Part shown: positions 2,318-36,583 of the stretch, piece by piece
Position numbering within the stretch: the first letter of the stretch is position 1
Layout: every line of letters starts with the position of its first letter
Assembly: GCF_029227855.1 (NCBI RefSeq)
Contig: NZ_CP074356.1
Origin: Escherichia coli
GTDB lineage: Bacteria; Pseudomonadota; Gammaproteobacteria; Enterobacterales; Enterobacteriaceae
Direction: 5' to 3' (one strand)
Length of the DNA stretch: 64,000 nucleotides
Program-made: the position numbers and the translations under genes
The notes under the pieces: model-generated
Database searches by the model: none
Seen by the model: only the letters and a program-made list of their open reading frames with translations
What the model was told of the DNA's origin: nothing

Positions 2318-2995
2318 CTACAACAAGGCAAGGTTTATGTACTTTCCGGTTGCCGCATTTTCTGGATTTTCTGCAAGCCAGGGGATCTCTCCCAGCAGCG
2401 GCGCGGGAATCATGCGGGTGAGCGTGGTCATATATTCAGCGTGACGTTTTCCCGGAGGCGTGACATCATTCGCCACCCAACCCGCCAGAGTCAGCCCGGC
2501 GTGTTGTATTGCCTGTGCCGTCAACATCGCGTGATTAATACAGCCGAGTTTCACACCAACTACCAGTATCACCGGCAGTTGTTCCTGTGTTACCCAATCT
2601 GCAAAAGTGAAAGTGTCAGAAAGCGGCGTAAACCAGCCGCCAGCACCTTCCACTAACACCCAGTCAGCCTGTTGTTCAAGCGCGCGTAATCCGGCGCTCA
2701 TTACCAATGATTCTATCGGCCTGCCCTCTTGTGCGCTGATGATGTGCGGCGAAGTGGGTTCTGCGAAGGTGTAAGGATTTACCGTTGCGTAATCCAGCTG
2801 CAGGCTGCTGTTGCGCTGTAACGCCAGCGCGTCACTATTACGTAAGCCTTCCGGGGTCTTTTCGCTGCCAGAGGCGACCGGTTTATAACCTGCCGTCCGA
2901 TAACCTGCTGCCTTCGCGGCTTGTAAAAGTGCACAACTGGCGACAGTTTTCCCCACTTCGGTATCCGTTCCGGTGACAAAATAACGTTTACTCAC
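2318..2995 (-). CDS. bioD: Dethiobiotin synthetase (BioD)
   Basis: ORF-track protein ...[27 protein letters not shown]... matches BioD; start placed at the GTG (2993-2995) giving MSKRYF, since the ORF track begins two codons earlier at a TTG. Confidence 0.93.
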
Positions 2996-3743
2996 GAGCA
3001 ATTACTCCCAAAAAAAGATGATACGTCAGAGGATATCGCCCCTGTTGTTGCGGCCAGGCCAGTTGCAATCGCTGCAACTGCGAACGCGTTAATATTCGTG
3101 GGTCGCGCCCTTTATGAATATGCGTGGCACCGATGCCTTTCAGCGAACGCATGGCACTGAGCGCATCAGCAAACCACAGCGTGATGGGCTGAATATGATG
3201 TTGATAATGCACGCCGTTCAGCGACTGTTCGATTTCATCTGGCGGTAAAAAGCGATTAGCATGCGGGCGCTCGTCCACCGCCTGCCACGCCTGATGTAAT
3301 TCAGGGAGCGATCCCTGCGCCAGCGTGGTAAACGCGACCACGCCTCCGGGGCGCACCACCCTGTATAGCTCGCGGAGTGCCGTGGATAAATTACCGCACC
3401 ACTGCACCGCGAGATTGCTCCATGCAAGATCGAACGTCGCAGTCGCTAACGGCAGGGATTCGATATCTCCCGCCAGATAATGGTCTGCGGCATCTTTATG
3501 GCGGGCTTGCGCAAGCATTGGCGGCGAGAGATCTAACGCCGTCACCTGCGCGTGACGTTCCCGCCAGTGGCGGCTCATCCAGCCAGGTCCACAACCCGCG
3601 TCCAGTACGTGGGTGTATTTACGCTGTGGAAGCATTGCCAGTAAGACGTCAGCACTCTGGCGCTGTAACTCTGCGTGTTGCTCATAGTGCGCGGCTGCCC
3701 GACCAAATGCCGCTGCAATGGCTTGTTTATTAACCGTTGCCAT
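2988..3743 (-). CDS. bioC: Malonyl-ACP O-methyltransferase (BioC)
   Basis: Translation from the internal Met reads [28 protein letters not shown]..., a SAM-methyltransferase matching BioC; start trimmed from ORF-track 3782 to 3743; overlaps bioD start and bioF stop as in the bio operon. Confidence 0.9.
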
Positions 3744-27506: not shown

Positions 27507-28259
27507 ATGGCTGTAACTAAGCTGGTTCTGGTTCGTCATGGCGAAAGTCAGTGGAACAAAGAAAACCGTTTCACCGGTTGGTACGACGTGGATCTGTCTG
27601 AGAAAGGCGTAAGCGAAGCAAAAGCAGCAGGTAAGCTGCTGAAAGAGGAAGGTTACAGCTTTGACTTTGCTTACACCTCTGTGCTGAAACGCGCTATTCA
27701 TACCCTGTGGAATGTGCTGGACGAACTGGATCAGGCATGGCTGCCCGTTGAGAAATCCTGGAAACTGAACGAACGTCACTACGGTGCGTTGCAGGGTCTG
27801 AACAAAGCGGAAACCGCTGAAAAGTATGGCGACGAGCAGGTGAAACAATGGCGTCGTGGTTTTGCGGTGACTCCGCCGGAACTGACTAAAGATGATGAGC
27901 GTTATCCGGGTCACGATCCCCGTTACGCGAAACTGAGCGAGAAAGAACTGCCGCTAACGGAAAGCCTGGCGCTGACCATTGACCGCGTGATCCCTTACTG
28001 GAATGAAACTATTCTACCGCGTATGAAGAGCGGTGAGCGCGTCATCATCGCTGCACACGGTAACTCGTTACGTGCGCTGGTGAAATATCTTGATAACATG
28101 AGCGAAGAAGAGATTCTTGAGCTGAATATCCCGACTGGCGTGCCGCTGGTTTATGAGTTTGACGAGAACTTCAAACCGCTGAAACGCTATTATCTGGGTA
28201 ATGCTGACGAGATCGCGGCGAAAGCAGCGGCCGTTGCAAACCAGGGTAAAGCGAAGTAA
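27507..28259 (+). CDS. gpmA: 2,3-bisphosphoglycerate-dependent phosphoglycerate mutase GpmA
   Basis: From the ATG at 27507 with GAGGAG ribosome-binding site: [34 protein letters not shown]... (RHGE motif); a Fur-box-like AT-rich palindrome (aatgagaattattatcatt) lies about 30 bp upstream. Confidence 0.96.
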
Positions 28260-28284
28260 ACGTCATTCGTTTAAAAAATAAATA

Positions 28285-28310
28285 TCCTCCGGCATAGCCG
28301 GAGGTTTTTC
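28285..28310 (+). terminator. Intrinsic terminator after gpmA
   Basis: Hairpin tcctccggc-ata-gccggagg followed by ttttt. Confidence 0.8.
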
Positions 28311-28324
28311 AAATGCGCCTATAA

Positions 28325-29025
28325 GGCTCTCTTACCAGCCGCGCCCTAACAGGCGCACACGATCTGACATTTGCATCCAACTTCGTTACTTACGGCCCGT
28401 AAACGGGCTGCCCGGATAGGGAATCGATAACTGCTCTCCCATTTTATCCTCTTCAAGCTGGTGCTTTATGTAATCCTGTATCTTCGCCGTGTTCTTACCC
28501 ACTGTATCGACGTAGTACCCTCTGCACCAGAACTCCCTGTTCCTGTATTTGAATTTCAAATCACCAAACTGCTCGTAAAGCATCAGACTGCTTTTCCCTT
28601 TCAGATATCCCATAAACCCGGATACGCTCATTTTGGGCGGGATCTCCACAAGCATATGGATATGATCTGCACAGCATTCAGCTTCCAGAATCCGTACGCT
28701 TTTCCACTCACACAGCTTTCTCAAAATACTGCCTATTGCTCTACGCTTCTCTCTGTAGAACACCTGTCTTCGGTATTTTGGCGCAAAAACTATGTGATAT
28801 TTACAGTTCCATCGGGTGTGCGCTAAGCTCTTTTCGTTCCCCATTGGGACCCCCTTTTGATTTCTTGTTTGACACTTGCAGTTGCCAGACCGCAAAGTGT
28901 TTTAACAAATCAAAAGGGGTTTTAATAACTGGCTCAAAGCTGAAAGCTTTCCGGAACCCCCAGCCTAGCTGGGGGTTTTCTGTGCACAATGAGAAAGCCG
29001 ACTGCAAGTGAGTCGGCTTTTTTGT
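28325..29025 (-). mobile_element. IS200-family insertion sequence (IS200/IS605 group); ends approximate
   Basis: Contains a Y1 HuH transposase gene; on the transposase-upstream side there are two strong hairpins characteristic of the IS200 left end (aacccccagc-ctag-gctgggggtt at about 28951-28975 and aagccgactgc-aagt-gagtcggctt plus T-run at about 28994-29025); about 700 bp total, the expected IS200 size. Confidence 0.75.
28386..28844 (-). CDS. tnpA: IS200-type transposase TnpA (Y1 HuH transposase, 152 aa)
   Basis: MGNEKSLAHTRWNCKYHIVFAPKYRRQVFYREKRRAIGSILRKLCEWKSVRILEAECCADHIHMLVEIPPK... with the HxH motif (HIHML) and catalytic-Tyr region; start trimmed from the ORF track to the internal Met. 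Confidence 0.9.
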   Translation of the reverse strand: MGNEKSLAHTRWNCKYHIVFAPKYRRQVFYREKRRAIGSILRKLCEWKSVRILEAECCADHIHMLVEIPPKMSVSGFMGYLKGKSSLMLYEQFGDLKFKYRNREFWCRGYYVDTVGKNTAKIQDYIKHQLEEDKMGEQLSIPYPGSPFTGRK

Positions 29026-29052
29026 TTGTCGTTGCTAACAATGGAGCACATT

Positions 29053-29130
29053 GCCTGATGCGACGCTGCGCGTCTTGTCAGGGCTACGGTGATTCATCGG
29101 ATACGCCACTCTGACGGCGCATCCGACAAT
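29053..29130. repeat. REP (palindromic unit) elements, probable BIME, downstream of aroG
   Basis: gcctgatgcgacgctgcgcgtcttgtcagggctac matches the REP consensus form; a second inverted REP-like unit (ggatacgccactctgacggcgcatccg) follows. Confidence 0.75.
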
Positions 29131-29136
29131 TAAACC

Positions 29137-30189
29137 TTACCCGCGACGCGCTTTTACTGCATTCGCCAGTTGACGTAACAGAGCATCGGTATCTTCCCAG
29201 CCGATGCAGGCATCAGTGATGCTCTTGCCATAGGCCAGCGGTTCCCCACTCTCGAGGCTCTGATTGCCTTCCACCAGATGGCTTTCCACCATCACGCCAA
29301 TAATGGCCTTTTCGCCACCGGCAATCTGCTGGCAAACGTCAGCACAAACATCCATCTGCTTTTTAAATTGTTTTGACGAGTTAGCATGGCTGAAATCGAT
29401 CATCACCTGTGCTGGCAGGCCTGCTTTGTTCAGCCCTTCTTTCACTTCAGCAACGTGCTTCGCGCTGTAGTTAGGCTCTTTACCGCCGCGCAGAATGATA
29501 TGGCAATCGCCGTTACCGCTGGTATTCACAATCGCCGAATGCCCCCATTTCGTTACGGACAGGAAGCAGTGCGGCGCACCGGCGGCATTAATGGCATCGA
29601 TAGCCACTTTAATCGTACCATCAGTGCCATTTTTGAAGCCTACCGGGCAAGAAAGCCCTGATGCCAGTTCGCGGTGCACCTGCGATTCCGTAGTACGTGC
29701 GCCAATTGCGCCCCAGCTCATCAGGTCAGCGAGATACTGCGGGGTGATCATATCGAGAAATTCACCCGCTGCTGGCAAACCGCTGTCGTTAATATCAAGC
29801 AGCAATTTACGGGCAATACGCAGACCGTCGTTGATCTGGAAGCTGTTATCCATATGCGGATCATTAATCAGCCCTTTCCAGCCCACAGTGGTACGCGGCT
29901 TTTCAAAATAGACGCGCATCACGATTTCCAGCTCATCTTGCAGCTCTTCACGCAGCGTCAGCAAGCGAGTGGCATACTCTTTAGCCGCGACAGGATCATG
30001 AATTGAGCACGGACCAATCACCACCAACAGGCGATCATCATTACCTTTCAGGATCTTATGGATCTCTTTTCGGGCATGGGCGACCGTATTCGCGGCATTT
30101 TCAGTAGCGGGGAATTTTTCCAGCAATGCGACAGGAGGAAGTAACTCTTTGATTTCTTTGATGCGTAAATCGTCGTTCTGATAATTCAT
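29137..30189 (-). CDS. aroG: DAHP synthase, Phe-sensitive (AroG)
   Basis: 350 aa ORF MNYQNDDLRIKEIKELLPPVALLEKFPATENAANTVAHARK...; matches AroG. Confidence 0.96.
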   Translation of the reverse strand: MNYQNDDLRIKEIKELLPPVALLEKFPATENAANTVAHARKEIHKILKGNDDRLLVVIGPCSIHDPVAAKEYATRLLTLREELQDELEIVMRVYFEKPRTTVGWKGLINDPHMDNSFQINDGLRIARKLLLDINDSGLPAAGEFLDMITPQYLADLMSWGAIGARTTESQVHRELASGLSCPVGFKNGTDGTIKVAIDAINAAGAPHCFLSVTKWGHSAIVNTSGNGDCHIILRGGKEPNYSAKHVAEVKEGLNKAGLPAQVMIDFSHANSSKQFKKQMDVCADVCQQIAGGEKAIIGVMVESHLVEGNQSLESGEPLAYGKSITDACIGWEDTDALLRQLANAVKARRG

Positions 30190-33737: not shown

Positions 33738-34169
33738 CTTACCATCTCGTTTTACAGGCTTAACGTTAAAACCGACATGAGCGTAATATTCGCTGTTATC
33801 GGTGTAATTTGTTTTATATGCTAAACAAGATAGTCGAATGGTGGGGAAAAGTCACTCGAATTACGTATGAGATGCCGAATGCCACACTTTGCGTCTTATT
33901 TCTCCGACGTAAAGTTGTTTACGCAGCAAACGCGGAGTATGTCATCTGGGTTAAGAATTGAAATTGAGAGATGCCTGAATAGCAAAAAAGCGCCTTTAGG
34001 GCGCTTTTTTACATTGGTGGGTCGTGCAGGATGACTCGCTTCGCTCGCCCTACGGGCCGTCGCCGCGAGCGGCTCCGTTATTTCGCTGCGCTCAACTCGA
34101 ACCTGCTGCAGGTTCGAATCTTTGAGTATCGCAGATAGTAAAAAAGCGCCTTTAGGGCGCTTTTTTACA

Positions 34170-34245
34170 TTGGTGGGTCGTGCAGGATTCGAACCTGCGA
34201 CCAATTGATTAAAAGTCAACTGCTCTACCAACTGAGCTAACGACC
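34170..34245 (-). tRNA. lysQ: tRNA-Lys (anticodon UUU)
   Basis: Reverse complement is GGGTCGTTAGCTCAGTTGGTAGAGCAGTTGACTTTTAATCAATTGGTCGCAGGTTCGAATCCTGCACGACCCACCA; gene name by position in the K-12 order. Confidence 0.93.
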
Positions 34246-34278
34246 CCTTGCGGGATTATGCTGCTTTAATCATTCAGG

Positions 34279-34354
34279 ATGGTGGGTCGTGCAGGATTCG
34301 AACCTGCGACCAATTGATTAAAAGTCAACTGCTCTACCAACTGAGCTAACGACC
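34279..34354 (-). tRNA. lysZ: tRNA-Lys (UUU)
   Basis: Identical 76-nt tRNA-Lys sequence on the minus strand. Confidence 0.93.
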
Positions 34355-34500
34355 CATACGGGTGTTACCTGAAAGATTTCTACTCGGAACCAATCTTTAA
34401 AATTGGTGGGTCGTGCAGGATGACTCGCTTCGCTCGCCCTACGGGCCGTTGCTGGCGCAACGTTATCCTTCACGCTTAACATCTGAGTTTGATGTTAAAA

Positions 34501-34576
34501 TTGGTGGGTCGTGCAGGATTCGAACCTGCGACCAATTGATTAAAAGTCAACTGCTCTACCAACTGAGCTAACGACC
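34501..34576 (-). tRNA. lysY: tRNA-Lys (UUU)
   Basis: Identical 76-nt tRNA-Lys sequence on the minus strand. Confidence 0.93.
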
Positions 34577-34579
34577 CGA

Positions 34580-34655
34580 GTGGTGGGTGATGACGGGATC
34601 GAACCGCCGACCCCCTCCTTGTAAGGGAGGTGCTCTCCCAGCTGAGCTAATCACC
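34580..34655 (-). tRNA. valZ: tRNA-Val (anticodon UAC)
   Basis: Reverse complement is GGGTGATTAGCTCAGCTGGGAGAGCACCTCCCTTACAAGGAGGGGGTCGGCGGTTCGATCCCGTCATCACCCACCA. Confidence 0.93.
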
Positions 34656-34706
34656 CGATACTGCGCTGGATACTACAAACTACTTCCACCGAACCCACCG
34701 TAATTA

Positions 34707-34782
34707 GTGGTGGGTCGTGCAGGATTCGAACCTGCGACCAATTGATTAAAAGTCAACTGCTCTACCAACTGAGCTAACGACC
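34707..34782 (-). tRNA. lysW: tRNA-Lys (UUU)
   Basis: Identical 76-nt tRNA-Lys sequence on the minus strand. Confidence 0.93.
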
Positions 34783-34784
34783 CG

Positions 34785-34860
34785 GTGGTGGGTGATGACG
34801 GGATCGAACCGCCGACCCCCTCCTTGTAAGGGAGGTGCTCTCCCAGCTGAGCTAATCACC
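34785..34860 (-). tRNA. valT: tRNA-Val (UAC)
   Basis: Identical 76-nt tRNA-Val sequence on the minus strand. Confidence 0.93.
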
Positions 34861-34995
34861 CGATACTACGCTGGATACTACAACTAACTAGGTTAGTGGT
34901 GGGTCGTGCAGGATGACTCGACTTCGTCTCGCCCTTCGGGCCGTTGCTGACGCAACGTTATCCTTCACGTTTTACTACCGCTTCCACCTTAGCGA

Positions 34996-35071
34996 TTGGT
35001 GGGTCGTGCAGGATTCGAACCTGCGACCAATTGATTAAAAGTCAACTGCTCTACCAACTGAGCTAACGACC
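34996..35071 (-). tRNA. lysT: tRNA-Lys (UUU), first gene of the operon
   Basis: Identical 76-nt tRNA-Lys sequence on the minus strand. Confidence 0.93.
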
Positions 35072-35236
35072 CACTTTTTCGTTGCTTTCGGTTTGTTTGA
35101 TATCCCGTGGCAACGGCGGCATATATTACTGATTTCAGACTTGAGCGCAACAAAAATTTCGATGTAGATCACTCAACTGCTTATGATTCGCACGACACGA
35201 CCAGAAATAATGCGACTTCTGGTCGTGTGTTATGCA

Positions 35237-36028
35237 TTACATCGCGTTCAGACGTTTTTGTGCCTGTTTAGCGCCATCAGTACCAGGGTATTTACTGATA
35301 ACCTGCTGGTATACGGCTTTCGCTTTTGCGGTGTCACCTTTGTCCTGCATGATGACGCCGACTTTAAACATCGCATCTGCAGCCTTTGGTGACTTCGGAT
35401 AGTTTTTTACTACCGAAGCAAAATAGTACGCCGCATCATCTTTTTTACCCTTGTTGTAGTTTAACTGACCCAGCCAATAATTGGCGTTTGGCAGGTAAGT
35501 TGAATCAGGGTAATTTTTGATGAAATTCTGAAATGCCACCATTGCGTCATCCTGGCGGGATTTATCCTGCACCAGCGCAATTGCTGCATTGTAATCCGTG
35601 TTTGCATCGCCGCTTTTCACCGGCGCGCCAGCATTCGCAGTACCAGCATCAGCTGTCGGCGTCGTTGATGCCGCCGCACCGCTTTGATCACCGCTGGTTG
35701 ATTGCGCCGCTGCACCACCGCTGCTGAGGCTGTCGATCTGCAACAGGATCTGCTTTTGCCGCTCCACGACCTGATTCAGTTGATACTGATTTTCCTGAAT
35801 CTGGCCACGCAGGGAATCAATATCGGATTGATTATCAGAGAGTTGTTGCTGGAGTTGGGTTAAAAGCTGGCTGTGAGCATTTGAAATACGCTCAAGTTGA
35901 GTGACGCGGTCTTCGACCGAGCCTGAGCCGACACTACTGATTGGTGCCTGAGCAAAAGCGGCCCAGGGGGCCGCTATACCAACCAGTAACGACAGACTCA
36001 ATAGTTGATGTCTGAAGTTACTGCTCAT
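35237..36028 (-). CDS. cpoB: Cell-division coordinator CpoB (YbgF), periplasmic TPR protein
   Basis: 263 aa ORF with signal peptide MSSNFRHQLLSLSLLVGIAAPWAAFA and a coiled-coil/TPR C-terminus; matches CpoB. Confidence 0.95.
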   Translation of the reverse strand: MSSNFRHQLLSLSLLVGIAAPWAAFAQAPISSVGSGSVEDRVTQLERISNAHSQLLTQLQQQLSDNQSDIDSLRGQIQENQYQLNQVVERQKQILLQIDSLSSGGAAAQSTSGDQSGAAASTTPTADAGTANAGAPVKSGDANTDYNAAIALVQDKSRQDDAMVAFQNFIKNYPDSTYLPNANYWLGQLNYNKGKKDDAAYYFASVVKNYPKSPKAADAMFKVGVIMQDKGDTAKAKAVYQQVISKYPGTDGAKQAQKRLNAM

Positions 36029-36037
36029 GCAATTCTC

Positions 36038-36583
<546 letters not shown>

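What the first reader, a model, noticed from the sequence alone, without database searches (positions are those of the whole stretch)
28325..29025. IS200-family insertion between gpmA and aroG
A complete-looking IS200 (HuH Y1 transposase gene plus the characteristic terminal hairpins) sits between the gpmA terminator and the REP elements downstream of aroG. I do not recall this locus carrying an insertion sequence in K-12. IS200 copies are strain-specific markers, and the element's terminal hairpin could act as an extra terminator for convergent aroG transcription.
Basis: partly seen in the sequence, partly recalled or inferred. Interest (0 to 1): 0.5.

Follow-up and report, generated by a model that had tools for sequence, protein, structure and literature searches.

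The report
IS200C copy inserted after aroG terminator
This is an ordinary, intact copy of the well-known small insertion sequence IS200C, sitting harmlessly between gpmA and aroG; it landed, as this family typically does, a few bases after a transcription-terminator hairpin, at a site hit several separate times in E. coli.

Summary
Comparison with empty sites in K-12 and in a near-isogenic genome (JNEC-KY178, 0 flank differences) puts the insertion at window 28277-28989. That is 712-713 bp net, with a 710-bp invariant core and ends blurred by A/T runs.

It encodes an intact 152-aa Y1 HUH transposase identical to the RefSeq IS200C protein, and it has the IS200 5'UTR structures and similar subterminal hairpins at both ends. 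The hairpin at 28997-29017 that he placed inside the element is the native gpmA/aroG terminator, which K-12 also has.

Full-length IS200C occurs in 2,063 of 5,426 complete E. coli genomes, but only 6 carry it here. Those six have diverged flanks and IS variants that do not track the flanks, so the site is a recurrent hotspot rather than a clean lineage marker.

Across 126 distinct sites in many taxa, 88% of left ends lie 4-7 nt after a terminator-like hairpin. A recent preprint already reports this association statistically.

Verdict: a known element, probably neutral here, of low interest.

The parts
28277..28989 (-). IS200C element (IS200 group of the IS200/IS605 family). The left end (LE) is at 28989 and the right end (RE) at 28277. 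The invariant core is 28279-28988; the termini are ambiguous by about 2 nt inside A/T runs.
   Evidence: Empty-site alignments with K-12 and JNEC-KY178. Ends shared with five copies at other loci. 97-100% identity to copies that PGAP annotates as IS200C.
28386..28844 (-). tnpA, encoding a 152-aa Y1 HUH transposase (stop codon included). HUH = H61-I-H63; catalytic Tyr = Y125.
   Evidence: NF033573 147.7 bits. Pfam Y1_Tnp 4.4e-38. Identical to WP_000526135.1. PDB relatives 2ec2, 2a6m (IS608) and 2xm3 (ISDra2). Y125F is catalytically dead in Salmonella IS200 (PMC4513863).
28955..28977 (-). LE subterminal hairpin (AACCCCCAGC-TAG-GCTGGGGGTT). It corresponds to the nt 12-34 'bidirectional terminator' of Salmonella IS200 and is the presumed TnpA-binding hairpin.
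   Evidence: Fold -18.7 kcal/mol. Inverted repeat I6, 100% complementary. Model positions 1-23 of Rfam STnc490. Anatomy from PMC4513863.
28851..28919 (-). [quoted passage not shown] It corresponds to the nt 69-138 inverted repeat of Salmonella IS200.
   Evidence: Fold -33.4 kcal/mol, z -4.75, 0 of 200 shuffles as stable. Inverted repeat I1. Rfam STnc490 match at 28854-28977.
28836..28925 (+). [quoted passage not shown] Coordinates are inferred by homology, not measured.
   Evidence: Inference from the description in PMC4513863 mapped onto the conserved 5'UTR. No expression data.
28286..28304 (-). RE subterminal hairpin (CCTCCGGC-TAT-GCCGGAGG), 9 nt from the RE tip. On the + strand TTTTT (28305-28309) follows it, making it a terminator-like structure now 27 nt downstream of the gpmA stop codon.
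   Evidence: Folds -15.9 / -15.5 kcal/mol, z about -5. The terminator scan lists it on both strands. It is a 78% direct repeat of the LE hairpin, including the adjacent run of four T's on the + strand, i.e. AAAA 5' of the hairpin foot on the tnpA-sense strand (D1).
28991..29023 (.). Native bidirectional gpmA/aroG terminator hairpin (GC core 28997-29017, T6 at 18-23 of 290xx). It is flanking DNA and the insertion target, not part of the IS. On the tnpA-sense strand it reads GCCGACT..AGTCGGC-TTTCTCA, followed directly by the IS left end.
   Evidence: Present at the empty sites of K-12 and JNEC-KY178. Folds -18.7 (+) and -14.4 (-) kcal/mol.
27507..28259 (+). gpmA (context), intact. Its stop codon is 17 nt from the RE of the IS.
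   Evidence: ORF list and RefSeq annotation of the homologous loci.
29137..30189 (-). aroG (context), intact. It keeps its native terminator and REP element (about 29052-29090) between itself and the IS.
   Evidence: The weak naRNA4/REP-type Rfam hit is below gathering.

Best explanation
This is an intact, autonomous copy of IS200C, the E. coli member of the IS200 group of the IS200/IS605 family. It is about 711 bp long and carries only tnpA.

Shown here:
- The boundaries, and an uninterrupted transposase with HUH and Y125.
- A right-end hairpin that is a direct-repeat relative of the left-end hairpin.
- No terminal inverted repeats and no need for a target duplication.
- The tnpA-sense strand lies on the G-rich strand, which is the lagging-strand template.
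- The left end was placed 7 nt after the GC stem of the native aroG-side terminator hairpin.

Inferred from the established mechanism of the family (IS608/ISDra2 work, PMC5027513, PMC6006769):
- The element arrived by single-strand 'peel and paste' transposition. TnpA excises the top strand as a circle and inserts its left end 3' of a short T-rich target on the lagging-strand template.
- That target probably pairs with the A-rich guide (AAAA) 5' of the hairpin foot.
- Expression is normally kept off by the left-end terminator, SD sequestration and the art200 antisense RNA (PMC4513863).

Local consequences (inferred): no gene is disrupted. aroG keeps its terminator. gpmA is cut off from its native terminator, but 27 nt after its stop codon it meets the right-end hairpin plus T5, which should terminate transcription. 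The insertion is therefore probably near neutral.

History: the event is recent relative to the split from JNEC-KY178, or else that strain lost the element by precise excision. The site is a hotspot hit independently in about 4-5 lineages, because IS200-group elements insert 4-7 nt after terminator-like hairpins.
For: Identity and completeness: protein; RNA/DNA structures; 97-100% identity to annotated IS200C; a 100% identical 713-bp copy at another locus in MRSN346647.

Boundaries and absence of a target duplication.

Strand: GC skew is negative in all eight 8-kb bins of the + strand. This agrees with aroG lying on the K-12 + strand at 0.786 Mb, in the clockwise replichore.

Recency: JNEC-KY178 is 100.0% identical over 12,271 bp to the left and shows 0 differences in 759 + 1400 bp of flanks, yet its site is empty.

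Hotspot: six occupied genomes share the same junction and orientation, while their flanks differ from the window by 10-19 of 759 and 24-38 of 1400 positions. Flank SNPs begin 3-41 bp left and 35-89 bp right of the IS. IS variants do not follow the flanks: L011 and L012 flanks differ at 7 and 9 positions but their IS copies at 6, whereas L012 and L009 IS copies differ at 1 position but their flanks at 13 and 43.

Target rule: 111 of 126 distinct left-end flanks have a hairpin ending within 12 nt. Controls give 13 of 125 for a region 100 nt further out and 9.6% for T-run ends in the same loci. Adjacent MFE is -18.9 vs -9.6 kcal/mol, p 1.4e-19. T occupies 94 of 97 sites at -3, 81 of 97 at -2 and 76 of 97 at -4. 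The insertion point is 4-7 nt past the last G/C pair in 82 of 97 sites.

The right-end hairpin on the + strand passes the terminator-like scan.
Against: No transposition, expression or termination was measured; all mechanism steps are by homology. The direction of the event, gain here or precise loss in JNEC-KY178, cannot be decided from the sequence. The exact termini are blurred by homopolymer runs: the A-run at the RE junction is 4-6 nt among occupied genomes, and net insert size is 711-713 bp. The window's target tail (TCTCA) matches the T-rich consensus only at -5 and -3. The hairpin association could owe part of its strength to purifying selection against insertions elsewhere rather than to target choice. 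The consensus terminator scan did not list the native terminator, although it folds stably and a U-run follows it (vs 29). IS200 is described as nearly immobile in the laboratory (PMC4513863; bioRxiv 10.1101/2024.06.26.600842).
Confidence: 0.9

Rival explanations
1. This is one ancient insertion, inherited vertically. It persists in a few lineages and was lost from nearly all other E. coli by the precise excision typical of this family.
For: IS200/IS605 elements excise precisely and restore the donor site (PMC5027513). The IS copies at this site differ between lineages by 1-7 nt in 711, which is of the same order as flank divergence.
Against: 5,420 of 5,426 genomes lack it, which would require very many independent losses. 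IS variants do not co-vary with the flanks. The relative with zero flank differences has an empty site. The window's IS is 100% identical to a copy at a different locus in another strain. The junction A-run differs between genomes.
Confidence: 0.07
2. The IS-bearing spacer spread between lineages by homologous recombination, so there was one insertion that was later transferred horizontally.
For: E. coli recombines frequently. L012 carries an IS nearly identical to that of L009/L010 (1 difference) despite very different flanks.
Against: Lineage-specific SNPs and indels start 3-41 bp left and 35-89 bp right of the junctions. Recombination tracts would therefore have to end within tens of bp of the IS on both sides, in each case. 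The 7-bp indel 35 bp from the left end also tracks the flank type and not the IS type.
Confidence: 0.05
3. The copy is retained or recurs because it is useful to the host. It could be a domesticated source of regulatory RNAs (5'tnpA, art200), or it could serve as a replacement terminator or insulator between the convergent gpmA and aroG genes.
For: The 5'tnpA RNA from IS200 regulates virulence genes in Salmonella (PMC5435999; bioRxiv 10.1101/2024.06.26.600842). The 5'UTR is fully conserved here. The right-end hairpin supplies gpmA with a terminator-like structure. The same site was hit repeatedly.
Against: The general targeting rule, seen at 88% of 126 sites across many taxa, explains the recurrence without invoking selection. 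Only about 0.1% of genomes carry the element here. The native terminator already served both genes. No expression data exist.
Confidence: 0.05
4. The copy is a dead relic that can no longer move.
For: IS200 transposition is rarely or never seen in the laboratory with native regulation (PMC4513863).
Against: The ORF is intact and identical to the most common IS200C protein, with HUH and Y125 present. Both ends and all regulatory structures are intact. The empty site in a near-identical genome implies movement, either insertion or excision, on a very recent timescale.
Confidence: 0.1

Closest known systems
IS200C of E. coli (the ISfinder name used by NCBI PGAP)
   Same: 97-100% nucleotide identity over the full 713 bp, an identical TnpA (WP_000526135.1) and the same ends. 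RefSeq already annotates the same insertion in six genomes.
   Different: Nothing structural differs. Only the occupied site is rare (6 of 5,426 genomes).
IS200 of Salmonella enterica (707 bp)
   Same: Single tnpA. Left-end terminator hairpin at nt 12-34, SD-sequestering inverted repeat at nt 69-138, art200/STnc490 region, catalytic Y125 (PMC4513863). The Rfam STnc490 model matches end to end at 144.6 bits.
   Different: It is a different named iso-element. I did not align a Salmonella copy directly. My net insert length of 711-713 bp differs from the published 707 bp mainly in how the terminal T's are counted.
IS1541 of Yersinia pestis / Y. pseudotuberculosis
   Same: The 21-nt left-end hairpin is exactly conserved. 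The left-end tip is TTGTGCCCAG against TTGTGCACAG here. The right-end hairpin and the placement after terminator-like hairpins are the same.
   Different: High copy number in Yersinia, and tandem copies occur with a period of 710 bp.
IS608 (H. pylori) and ISDra2 (D. radiodurans), IS605 group
   Same: The same Y1 HUH TnpA family (PDB 2a6m E 4e-19, 2xm3 E 2e-16). Subterminal hairpins, no inverted repeats, no target duplication, left end inserted 3' of a short target, and a bias to the lagging-strand template (PMC5027513).
   Different: Those elements also carry tnpB and use fixed targets (TTAC, TTGAT) with no reported hairpin requirement. Here there is no tnpB, and the target is a degenerate T-rich tail 4-7 nt after a hairpin.
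Bacterial class C group II introns (working analogy only, from my own knowledge)
   Same: They insert just downstream of intrinsic terminator hairpins, a safe site that also shields the element from read-through transcription.
   Different: They are RNA-based retroelements with an unrelated protein and chemistry. There is no family relationship.
REP-associated tyrosine transposases (RAYT / TnpA-REP)
   Same: A distantly related Y1 HUH domain that recognises hairpins.
   Different: NF047646 scores 32.2 bits against a cutoff of 80, so this is not a member. The neighbouring REP (about 29052-29090) is native and is present in K-12.

Membership tests
IS200/IS605 family, IS200 group (IS200C) | Encodes a Y1 (single-tyrosine) HUH transposase of the Y1_Tnp / transpos_IS200 type | tested here: met
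   NF033573 147.7 bits against a cutoff of 55. Pfam PF01797 E 4.4e-38, covering model positions 2-121 of 121.
IS200/IS605 family, IS200 group (IS200C) | HUH motif and catalytic tyrosine intact | tested here: met
   H61-I-H63 and Y125 in KIQDYIKHQ. Y125 is the residue whose Y125F change kills Salmonella TnpA (PMC4513863). It aligns with the equivalent Tyr region of 2ec2.
IS200/IS605 family, IS200 group (IS200C) | About 700-710 bp with tnpA as the only gene (no tnpB) | tested here: met
   Net insertion of 712-713 bp. The only family-matching ORF is tnpA, and the other ORFs inside the element are antisense or overlapping frames with no support.
IS200/IS605 family, IS200 group (IS200C) | No terminal inverted repeats; instead similar subterminal hairpins at LE and RE in the same orientation | tested here: met
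   No inverted pair links the two tips. The LE and RE hairpins form a 78% direct repeat (D1), and each is a perfect or near-perfect palindrome (I3, I6).
IS200/IS605 family, IS200 group (IS200C) | No target-site duplication | tested here: inconclusive
   The K-12 empty site is restored exactly by removing 28277-28989, with no duplication. However, both junctions lie in A/T runs whose length varies between genomes (4-6), so a 1-2 nt duplication of A/T cannot be excluded.
IS200/IS605 family, IS200 group (IS200C) | Left end inserted 3' of a short element-specific target sequence | tested here: met
   T-rich consensus at -4 to -1 (T in 76, 94, 81 and 56 of 97 sites; A in 21 of 97 at -1). The window site TCTCA is a weak match.
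IS200/IS605 family, IS200 group (IS200C) | Active (tnpA-sense) strand on the lagging-strand template | tested here: met
   The + strand has negative GC skew in all bins, so the minus (tnpA) strand is the G-rich strand. This is consistent with the K-12 map position and the orientation of aroG. One copy only, so it is not a statistical test.
IS200/IS605 family, IS200 group (IS200C) | IS200-type 5' region: left-end terminator hairpin plus SD-sequestering stem-loop, and the STnc490/art200 locus | tested here: met
   Rfam RF01405 144.6 bits, model positions 1-124 of 124. Folds -18.7 and -33.4 kcal/mol.
IS200/IS605 family, IS200 group (IS200C) | Near-identity to named IS200C copies (an iso-element level of at least 95% DNA identity is the usual ISfinder convention, from my own knowledge) | tested here: met
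   909 records at 99% or more and 2,019 at 95-99%. PGAP labels them 'IS200/IS605-like element IS200C family transposase'.
IS200/IS605 family, IS200 group (IS200C) | Single-strand peel-and-paste transposition catalysed by TnpA | not testable with these tools
   Needs biochemistry or genetics. Only indirect support exists: an empty site in a near-identical genome.
REP-associated tyrosine transposase (RAYT) | Score above the NCBIfam NF047646 cutoff, and flanking by REP/BIME arrays in inverted orientation | tested here: not met
   32.2 bits against a cutoff of 80. A single native REP lies on one side only, and K-12 has it without the gene.
IS605 group (tnpA + tnpB) | Presence of a tnpB/iscB gene and omega-RNA | tested here: not met
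   The element is only about 711 bp and has no second supported ORF. No further Rfam hit within it at E <= 1.

The most novel reading that the evidence does not exclude
IS200-group transposases may select their target by structure. On single-stranded lagging-strand template they would recognise an intrinsic-terminator hairpin plus its T-tail, a mimic of the element's own right end (hairpin plus 7-9 nt T-rich tail). They would then join the left end 4-7 nt after the stem, with the A-rich guide 5' of the hairpin foot pairing with the T-tail. This would make IS200 a terminator-homing 'safe harbour' element across phyla. It would also explain the repeated hits at the identical nucleotide at gpmA/aroG and the tandem IS1541 copies. 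The statistical association has been reported (bioRxiv 10.1101/2025.07.22.666184), but there it is read as regulation of the transposase. In the searchable library I found no direct demonstration that the hairpin is a determinant of target choice.
Probability: 0.45. Interest if true: 0.45.

Novelty: already known. Interest (0 to 1): 0.2.

Why it matters
For this locus it matters little. No gene is broken and the element is a catalogued one. There are three modest points of value.

1. Annotation. The true native terminator and the IS-borne hairpins are easily confused here. After the insertion, gpmA most likely terminates at an IS-supplied hairpin.

2. Typing. IS200 position is used as a strain marker, but this site has been hit independently in several lineages, so sharing it does not prove relatedness.

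3. Biology. IS200 is often described as essentially immobile. An empty site in a genome with zero flank differences shows movement on a very short evolutionary timescale. The strict placement 4-7 nt after terminator hairpins, in Enterobacterales, Vibrio and MAGs assigned to Desulfovibrionaceae, Bacillota and other groups, also gives a concrete, testable rule for how this minimal transposon finds harmless sites.

Tried and rejected
1. A longer element of about 749 bp (window about 28275-29023). BLAST matches of other copies extended past the junction. I rejected this because the extension comes from unrelated terminator hairpins that merely look alike (A-run, GC stem, T-run). The flanks diverge immediately after CTGTGCACAA, and the K-12 and JNEC-KY178 empty sites retain the 28991-29023 hairpin.

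2. RAYT membership. The score is below the cutoff.

3. Weak Rfam hits for naRNA4 (33.1 bits against 59.5) and RcsR1 (24.9 against 60). Both are below gathering. The first is the native REP and the second is a chance match across two adjacent hairpins.

4. Terminal inverted repeats. None were found.

5. A 10-nt perfect complementarity between the apex of the tnpA 5'UTR stem (28873-28882) and the native terminator (29001-29010), plus a 9-nt pair at 28715-28723 / 28990-28998 (I7 and I10). About 0.3 such 10-mers are expected by chance in 781 bp, and the terminator predates the IS, so I treat these as coincidence.

6. Promoter scan. No sigma-70-like site appears in 28150-29250. This is consistent with the undefined, weak tnpA promoter and is not informative.

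7. I tried to read Odaert et al. 1998 (PMC106867, IS1541 insertion sites) and Beuzon & Casadesus 1997 (PMC146608) to see whether terminator targeting was already stated there. Neither is held, so priority for that observation remains unchecked.

8. I could not count IS200C copies in the window's own genome, because only 64 kb is available. It holds one copy.
Full report
**Context.** The window is E. coli chromosome in the order galK-galM-gpmA (+) / aroG (-) -ybgS-zitB. gpmA (27507-28259) and aroG (29137-30189) converge. In K-12 MG1655 the spacer between them is 157 bp. Here it is 877 bp.

**Checking the observation.** The extra DNA contains a minus-strand ORF (28844-28386, 152 aa).
- It matches NCBIfam transpos_IS200 at 147.7 bits (cutoff 55) and Pfam Y1_Tnp at E 4e-38.
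- Upstream of it, Rfam STnc490, the IS200 5' region, matches end to end at 144.6 bits.
- So an IS200-family element is really present. It is the only copy in the 64 kb.

**True boundaries.**
- Alignment with the K-12 empty site gives CGTTTAAAA|TGAGAAAGCC.
- The closest complete genome, JNEC-KY178, is 100.0% identical over 12,271 bp to the left and has 0 differences in 759 + 1400 bp of immediate flanks. Its site is also empty, reading GTTTAAAAA|TGAG.
- Five IS200C copies at unrelated loci (the thr attenuator in two strains, acrD/ypfM, yfeX/yfeY, ppdA/thyA) share exactly AATAAATATCC...CTGTGCACAA and diverge outside it.
- The insertion is therefore 28277-28989. It is 713 bp net against K-12 and 712 bp against JNEC-KY178, with a 710-bp invariant core at 28279-28988.
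- Both tips lie in A/T runs whose length varies (4-6 A at the right-end junction among occupied genomes), so the termini carry about 2 nt of uncertainty. A 1-2 nt A/T duplication cannot be formally excluded.

- The hairpin he called the gpmA terminator (28286-28304 plus T5) is the element's right-end hairpin.
- The hairpin at 28997-29017, which he counted as part of the element, is the native bidirectional gpmA/aroG terminator. It is present in K-12 and in JNEC-KY178.
- An early BLAST result suggested a longer repeat of about 749 bp. This came from different terminator hairpins next to other copies resembling one another.

**Anatomy**, read on the tnpA-sense (minus) strand:
- The left-end tip is TTGTGCACAG.
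- A perfect 10-bp hairpin lies at 28977-28955 (-18.7 kcal/mol). It corresponds to the nt 12-34 terminator described for Salmonella IS200.
- A long stem-loop at 28919-28851 (-33.4 kcal/mol, z -4.75) buries the AAGGGGGU Shine-Dalgarno sequence.
- tnpA follows.
- The right-end hairpin lies at 28304-28286 (-15.9 kcal/mol), 9 nt from the tip (anatomy from PMC4513863).
- The two subterminal hairpins are a 78% direct repeat of each other, including the AAAA just 5' of each foot on the tnpA-sense strand (TTTT after each hairpin on the + strand). There are no terminal inverted repeats.
- TnpA is identical to the commonest RefSeq IS200C protein (WP_000526135.1). It has H61-I-H63 and Y125, the residue whose mutation inactivates Salmonella TnpA (PMC4513863).
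- Its nearest solved relatives are the Sulfolobus, IS608 and ISDra2 TnpA proteins.
- The RAYT model scores below its cutoff.

**Distribution.**
- Full-length IS200C is present in 2,063 of 5,426 complete E. coli genomes, with up to 35 places per genome. One copy elsewhere, in strain MRSN346647, is 100% identical to this one.
- At the gpmA/aroG site it is present in only 6 genomes. In all six the position and orientation are the same, and PGAP annotates it as IS200C.
- The flanks of those genomes differ from the window by 1.3-2.7%. Lineage-specific SNPs start 3-41 bp left and 35-89 bp right of the junctions.
- The IS variants do not follow the flank types. L011 and L012 have close flanks but 6 IS differences, while L012 and L009 have 1 IS difference but 13 + 43 flank differences.
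- The simplest reading is about 4-5 independent insertions at the same nucleotide, which makes this a hotspot. The event in this strain would be recent, or alternatively JNEC-KY178 underwent a precise excision. Either way the element moved recently.

**Why this nucleotide.**
- On the tnpA-sense strand, the left end directly follows GCCGACT-loop-AGTCGGC-TTTCTCA, the aroG-sense terminator.
- Every other E. coli copy I inspected also has its left end just after a different terminator-like hairpin plus T-tail. One of these is the thr attenuator.
- A scan of one genome per species for the exact 21-nt left-end hairpin returned at least 120 stretches. They came from Yersinia pestis (IS1541), Vibrio, Brenneria, Dickeya, Edwardsiella and others, and from MAGs assigned to Mailhella/Desulfovibrio, Bacillota, Peptococcaceae, Oxalobacter, Saccharibacteria and Elusimicrobiaceae.
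- Of 126 distinct left-end flanks, 111 (88%) have a hairpin ending within 12 nt of the boundary. The control region 100 nt further out gives 13 of 125, and T-run ends in the same loci give 9.6%.
- The adjacent 45 nt fold to a mean of -18.9 kcal/mol against -9.6 kcal/mol for the control (p 1.4e-19).
- The last flank bases are T-rich: T at -3 in 94 of 97 sites. The insertion point lies 4-7 nt beyond the last G/C pair in 82 of 97 sites, and 7 nt in the window.
- In Y. pestis a tandem pair has the second copy's left end directly after the right-end hairpin plus ATATTTA of the first copy. The element's own right end therefore looks like a target.
- A recent preprint reports that terminator-like sequences are strongly over-represented immediately upstream of ISs, most of all for IS200/IS605, and interprets this as limiting transposase expression (bioRxiv 10.1101/2025.07.22.666184). 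The association itself is therefore not new.
- I could not access the 1997-98 IS200/IS1541 papers to see whether they stated it earlier.

**Mechanism.** What is shown: the boundaries, the intact gene and structures, the strand, the empty sites, and the target pattern. What is inferred, from the established IS608/ISDra2 mechanism (PMC5027513, PMC6006769):
- TnpA binds the two subterminal hairpins on the top strand and excises that strand as a circle.
- It then inserts the left end 3' of a short target that pairs with a guide sequence 5' of the hairpin foot, preferentially on the lagging-strand template.
- Here the candidate guide is A-rich (AAAA) at both ends, which fits the T-rich target and the T-rich right-end tip.
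- The + strand of the window has negative GC skew throughout, and aroG lies on the K-12 + strand in the clockwise replichore. The tnpA-sense strand is therefore the lagging-strand template, as the family rule predicts.
- Whether the hairpin itself is recognised, or merely marks where T-tails in harmless positions occur, is untested.

**Local consequences (inferred).**
- No coding sequence is touched.
- aroG keeps its native terminator and REP. The IS left-end hairpin lies beyond them, and on that strand no T-run follows it.
- gpmA is separated from its native terminator by the whole element. However, 27 nt after its stop codon it meets the right-end hairpin followed by TTTTT on the + strand, which the consensus scan lists as terminator-like.
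- The insertion is therefore probably near neutral.
- The same scan did not list the native terminator, although it folds at -18.7 kcal/mol and U6 follows it. This is a limitation of the scan.

**Verdict.** This is a catalogued element (IS200C) in a rare but already annotated position. Interest is low. The most interesting residue is the very regular terminator-adjacent targeting and the evidence of recent mobility for an element usually described as dormant (PMC4513863; bioRxiv 10.1101/2024.06.26.600842).

Noticed in passing
L013-L132: The 21-nt IS200 left-end hairpin CCCCCAGCTAGGCTGGGGGTT is exactly conserved in genomes far outside Enterobacterales: Vibrio, and MAGs assigned to Mailhella/Desulfovibrio, Bacillota, Peptococcaceae, Oxalobacter, Saccharibacteria and Elusimicrobiaceae. 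Many matches lie at contig ends. The left-end tip varies by group (TTGTGCACAG, TTGTGCCCAG, TTGTATAGAG, TTGTGAAACG, TGGTTAAAAG). This suggests wide horizontal spread, although mis-binning of MAG contigs is not excluded.
   Followed up: partly
L003 301-1047 and L004 261-1014 (E. coli EC190329 and CFT073): An IS200C copy sits between the thrL attenuator terminator and thrA. Its left end lies directly after the attenuator T-run, so it is inside the thr operon leader-to-gene junction. The effect on thrA expression is unknown.
   Followed up: no
L089 about 2661-3391 (= L091), Yersinia pestis NCTC5923: Two IS1541 copies lie in head-to-tail tandem with a period of 710 bp. The second copy's left end abuts ...CCTCCGGCTATGCCGGAGGATATTTA of the first, so the right-end hairpin behaves like a target.
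   Followed up: partly
window 29024-29030: A 7-bp insertion (GTTTGTC) relative to K-12 lies right after the T-run of the native terminator. JNEC-KY178, L002, L009 and L010 share it; K-12, L011 and L012 lack it. It is a useful flank-type marker near the IS.
   Followed up: partly
window 28273-28278 and the homologous junctions in L002, L009-L012: The A-run at the right-end junction is 4, 5 or 6 nt in different occupied genomes. It even differs (6 vs 5) between L009 and L010, whose flanks and IS are otherwise identical. This points to homopolymer slippage or sequencing error at the junction.
   Followed up: partly
window 28854-28977 (minus strand): The Rfam STnc490 model matches the tnpA-sense strand (left-end hairpin plus 5'UTR). 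PMC4513863, in contrast, describes STnc490/art200 as the RNA antisense to the tnpA 5'UTR. The Rfam family may be modelled on the opposite strand to the sRNA as it was later defined.
   Followed up: no
hits H76-H79 (pO157-type plasmids, e.g. NZ_CP017447.1 38694-38834): Unannotated 141-bp fragments, 92% identical to the right-end part of IS200C (query positions 1-141), occur on O157:H7 virulence plasmids. Many other plasmids carry the left-end half (query 375-713), often next to IS1.
   Followed up: no
window 28873-28882 vs 29001-29010; 28715-28723 vs 28990-28998: There is a perfect 10-nt complementarity between the apex of the tnpA 5'UTR stem-loop and the native terminator hairpin, plus a 9-nt pair between the tnpA coding region and the sequence at the insertion junction (I7 and I10). 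This is probably chance: about 0.3 such 10-mers are expected in this stretch.
   Followed up: partly
window 34015-36137: The expected K-12-like features are present: seven lys/val tRNA genes with RtT repeats, and the cpoB/ybgF RNA thermometer. Nothing here is unusual.
   Followed up: no
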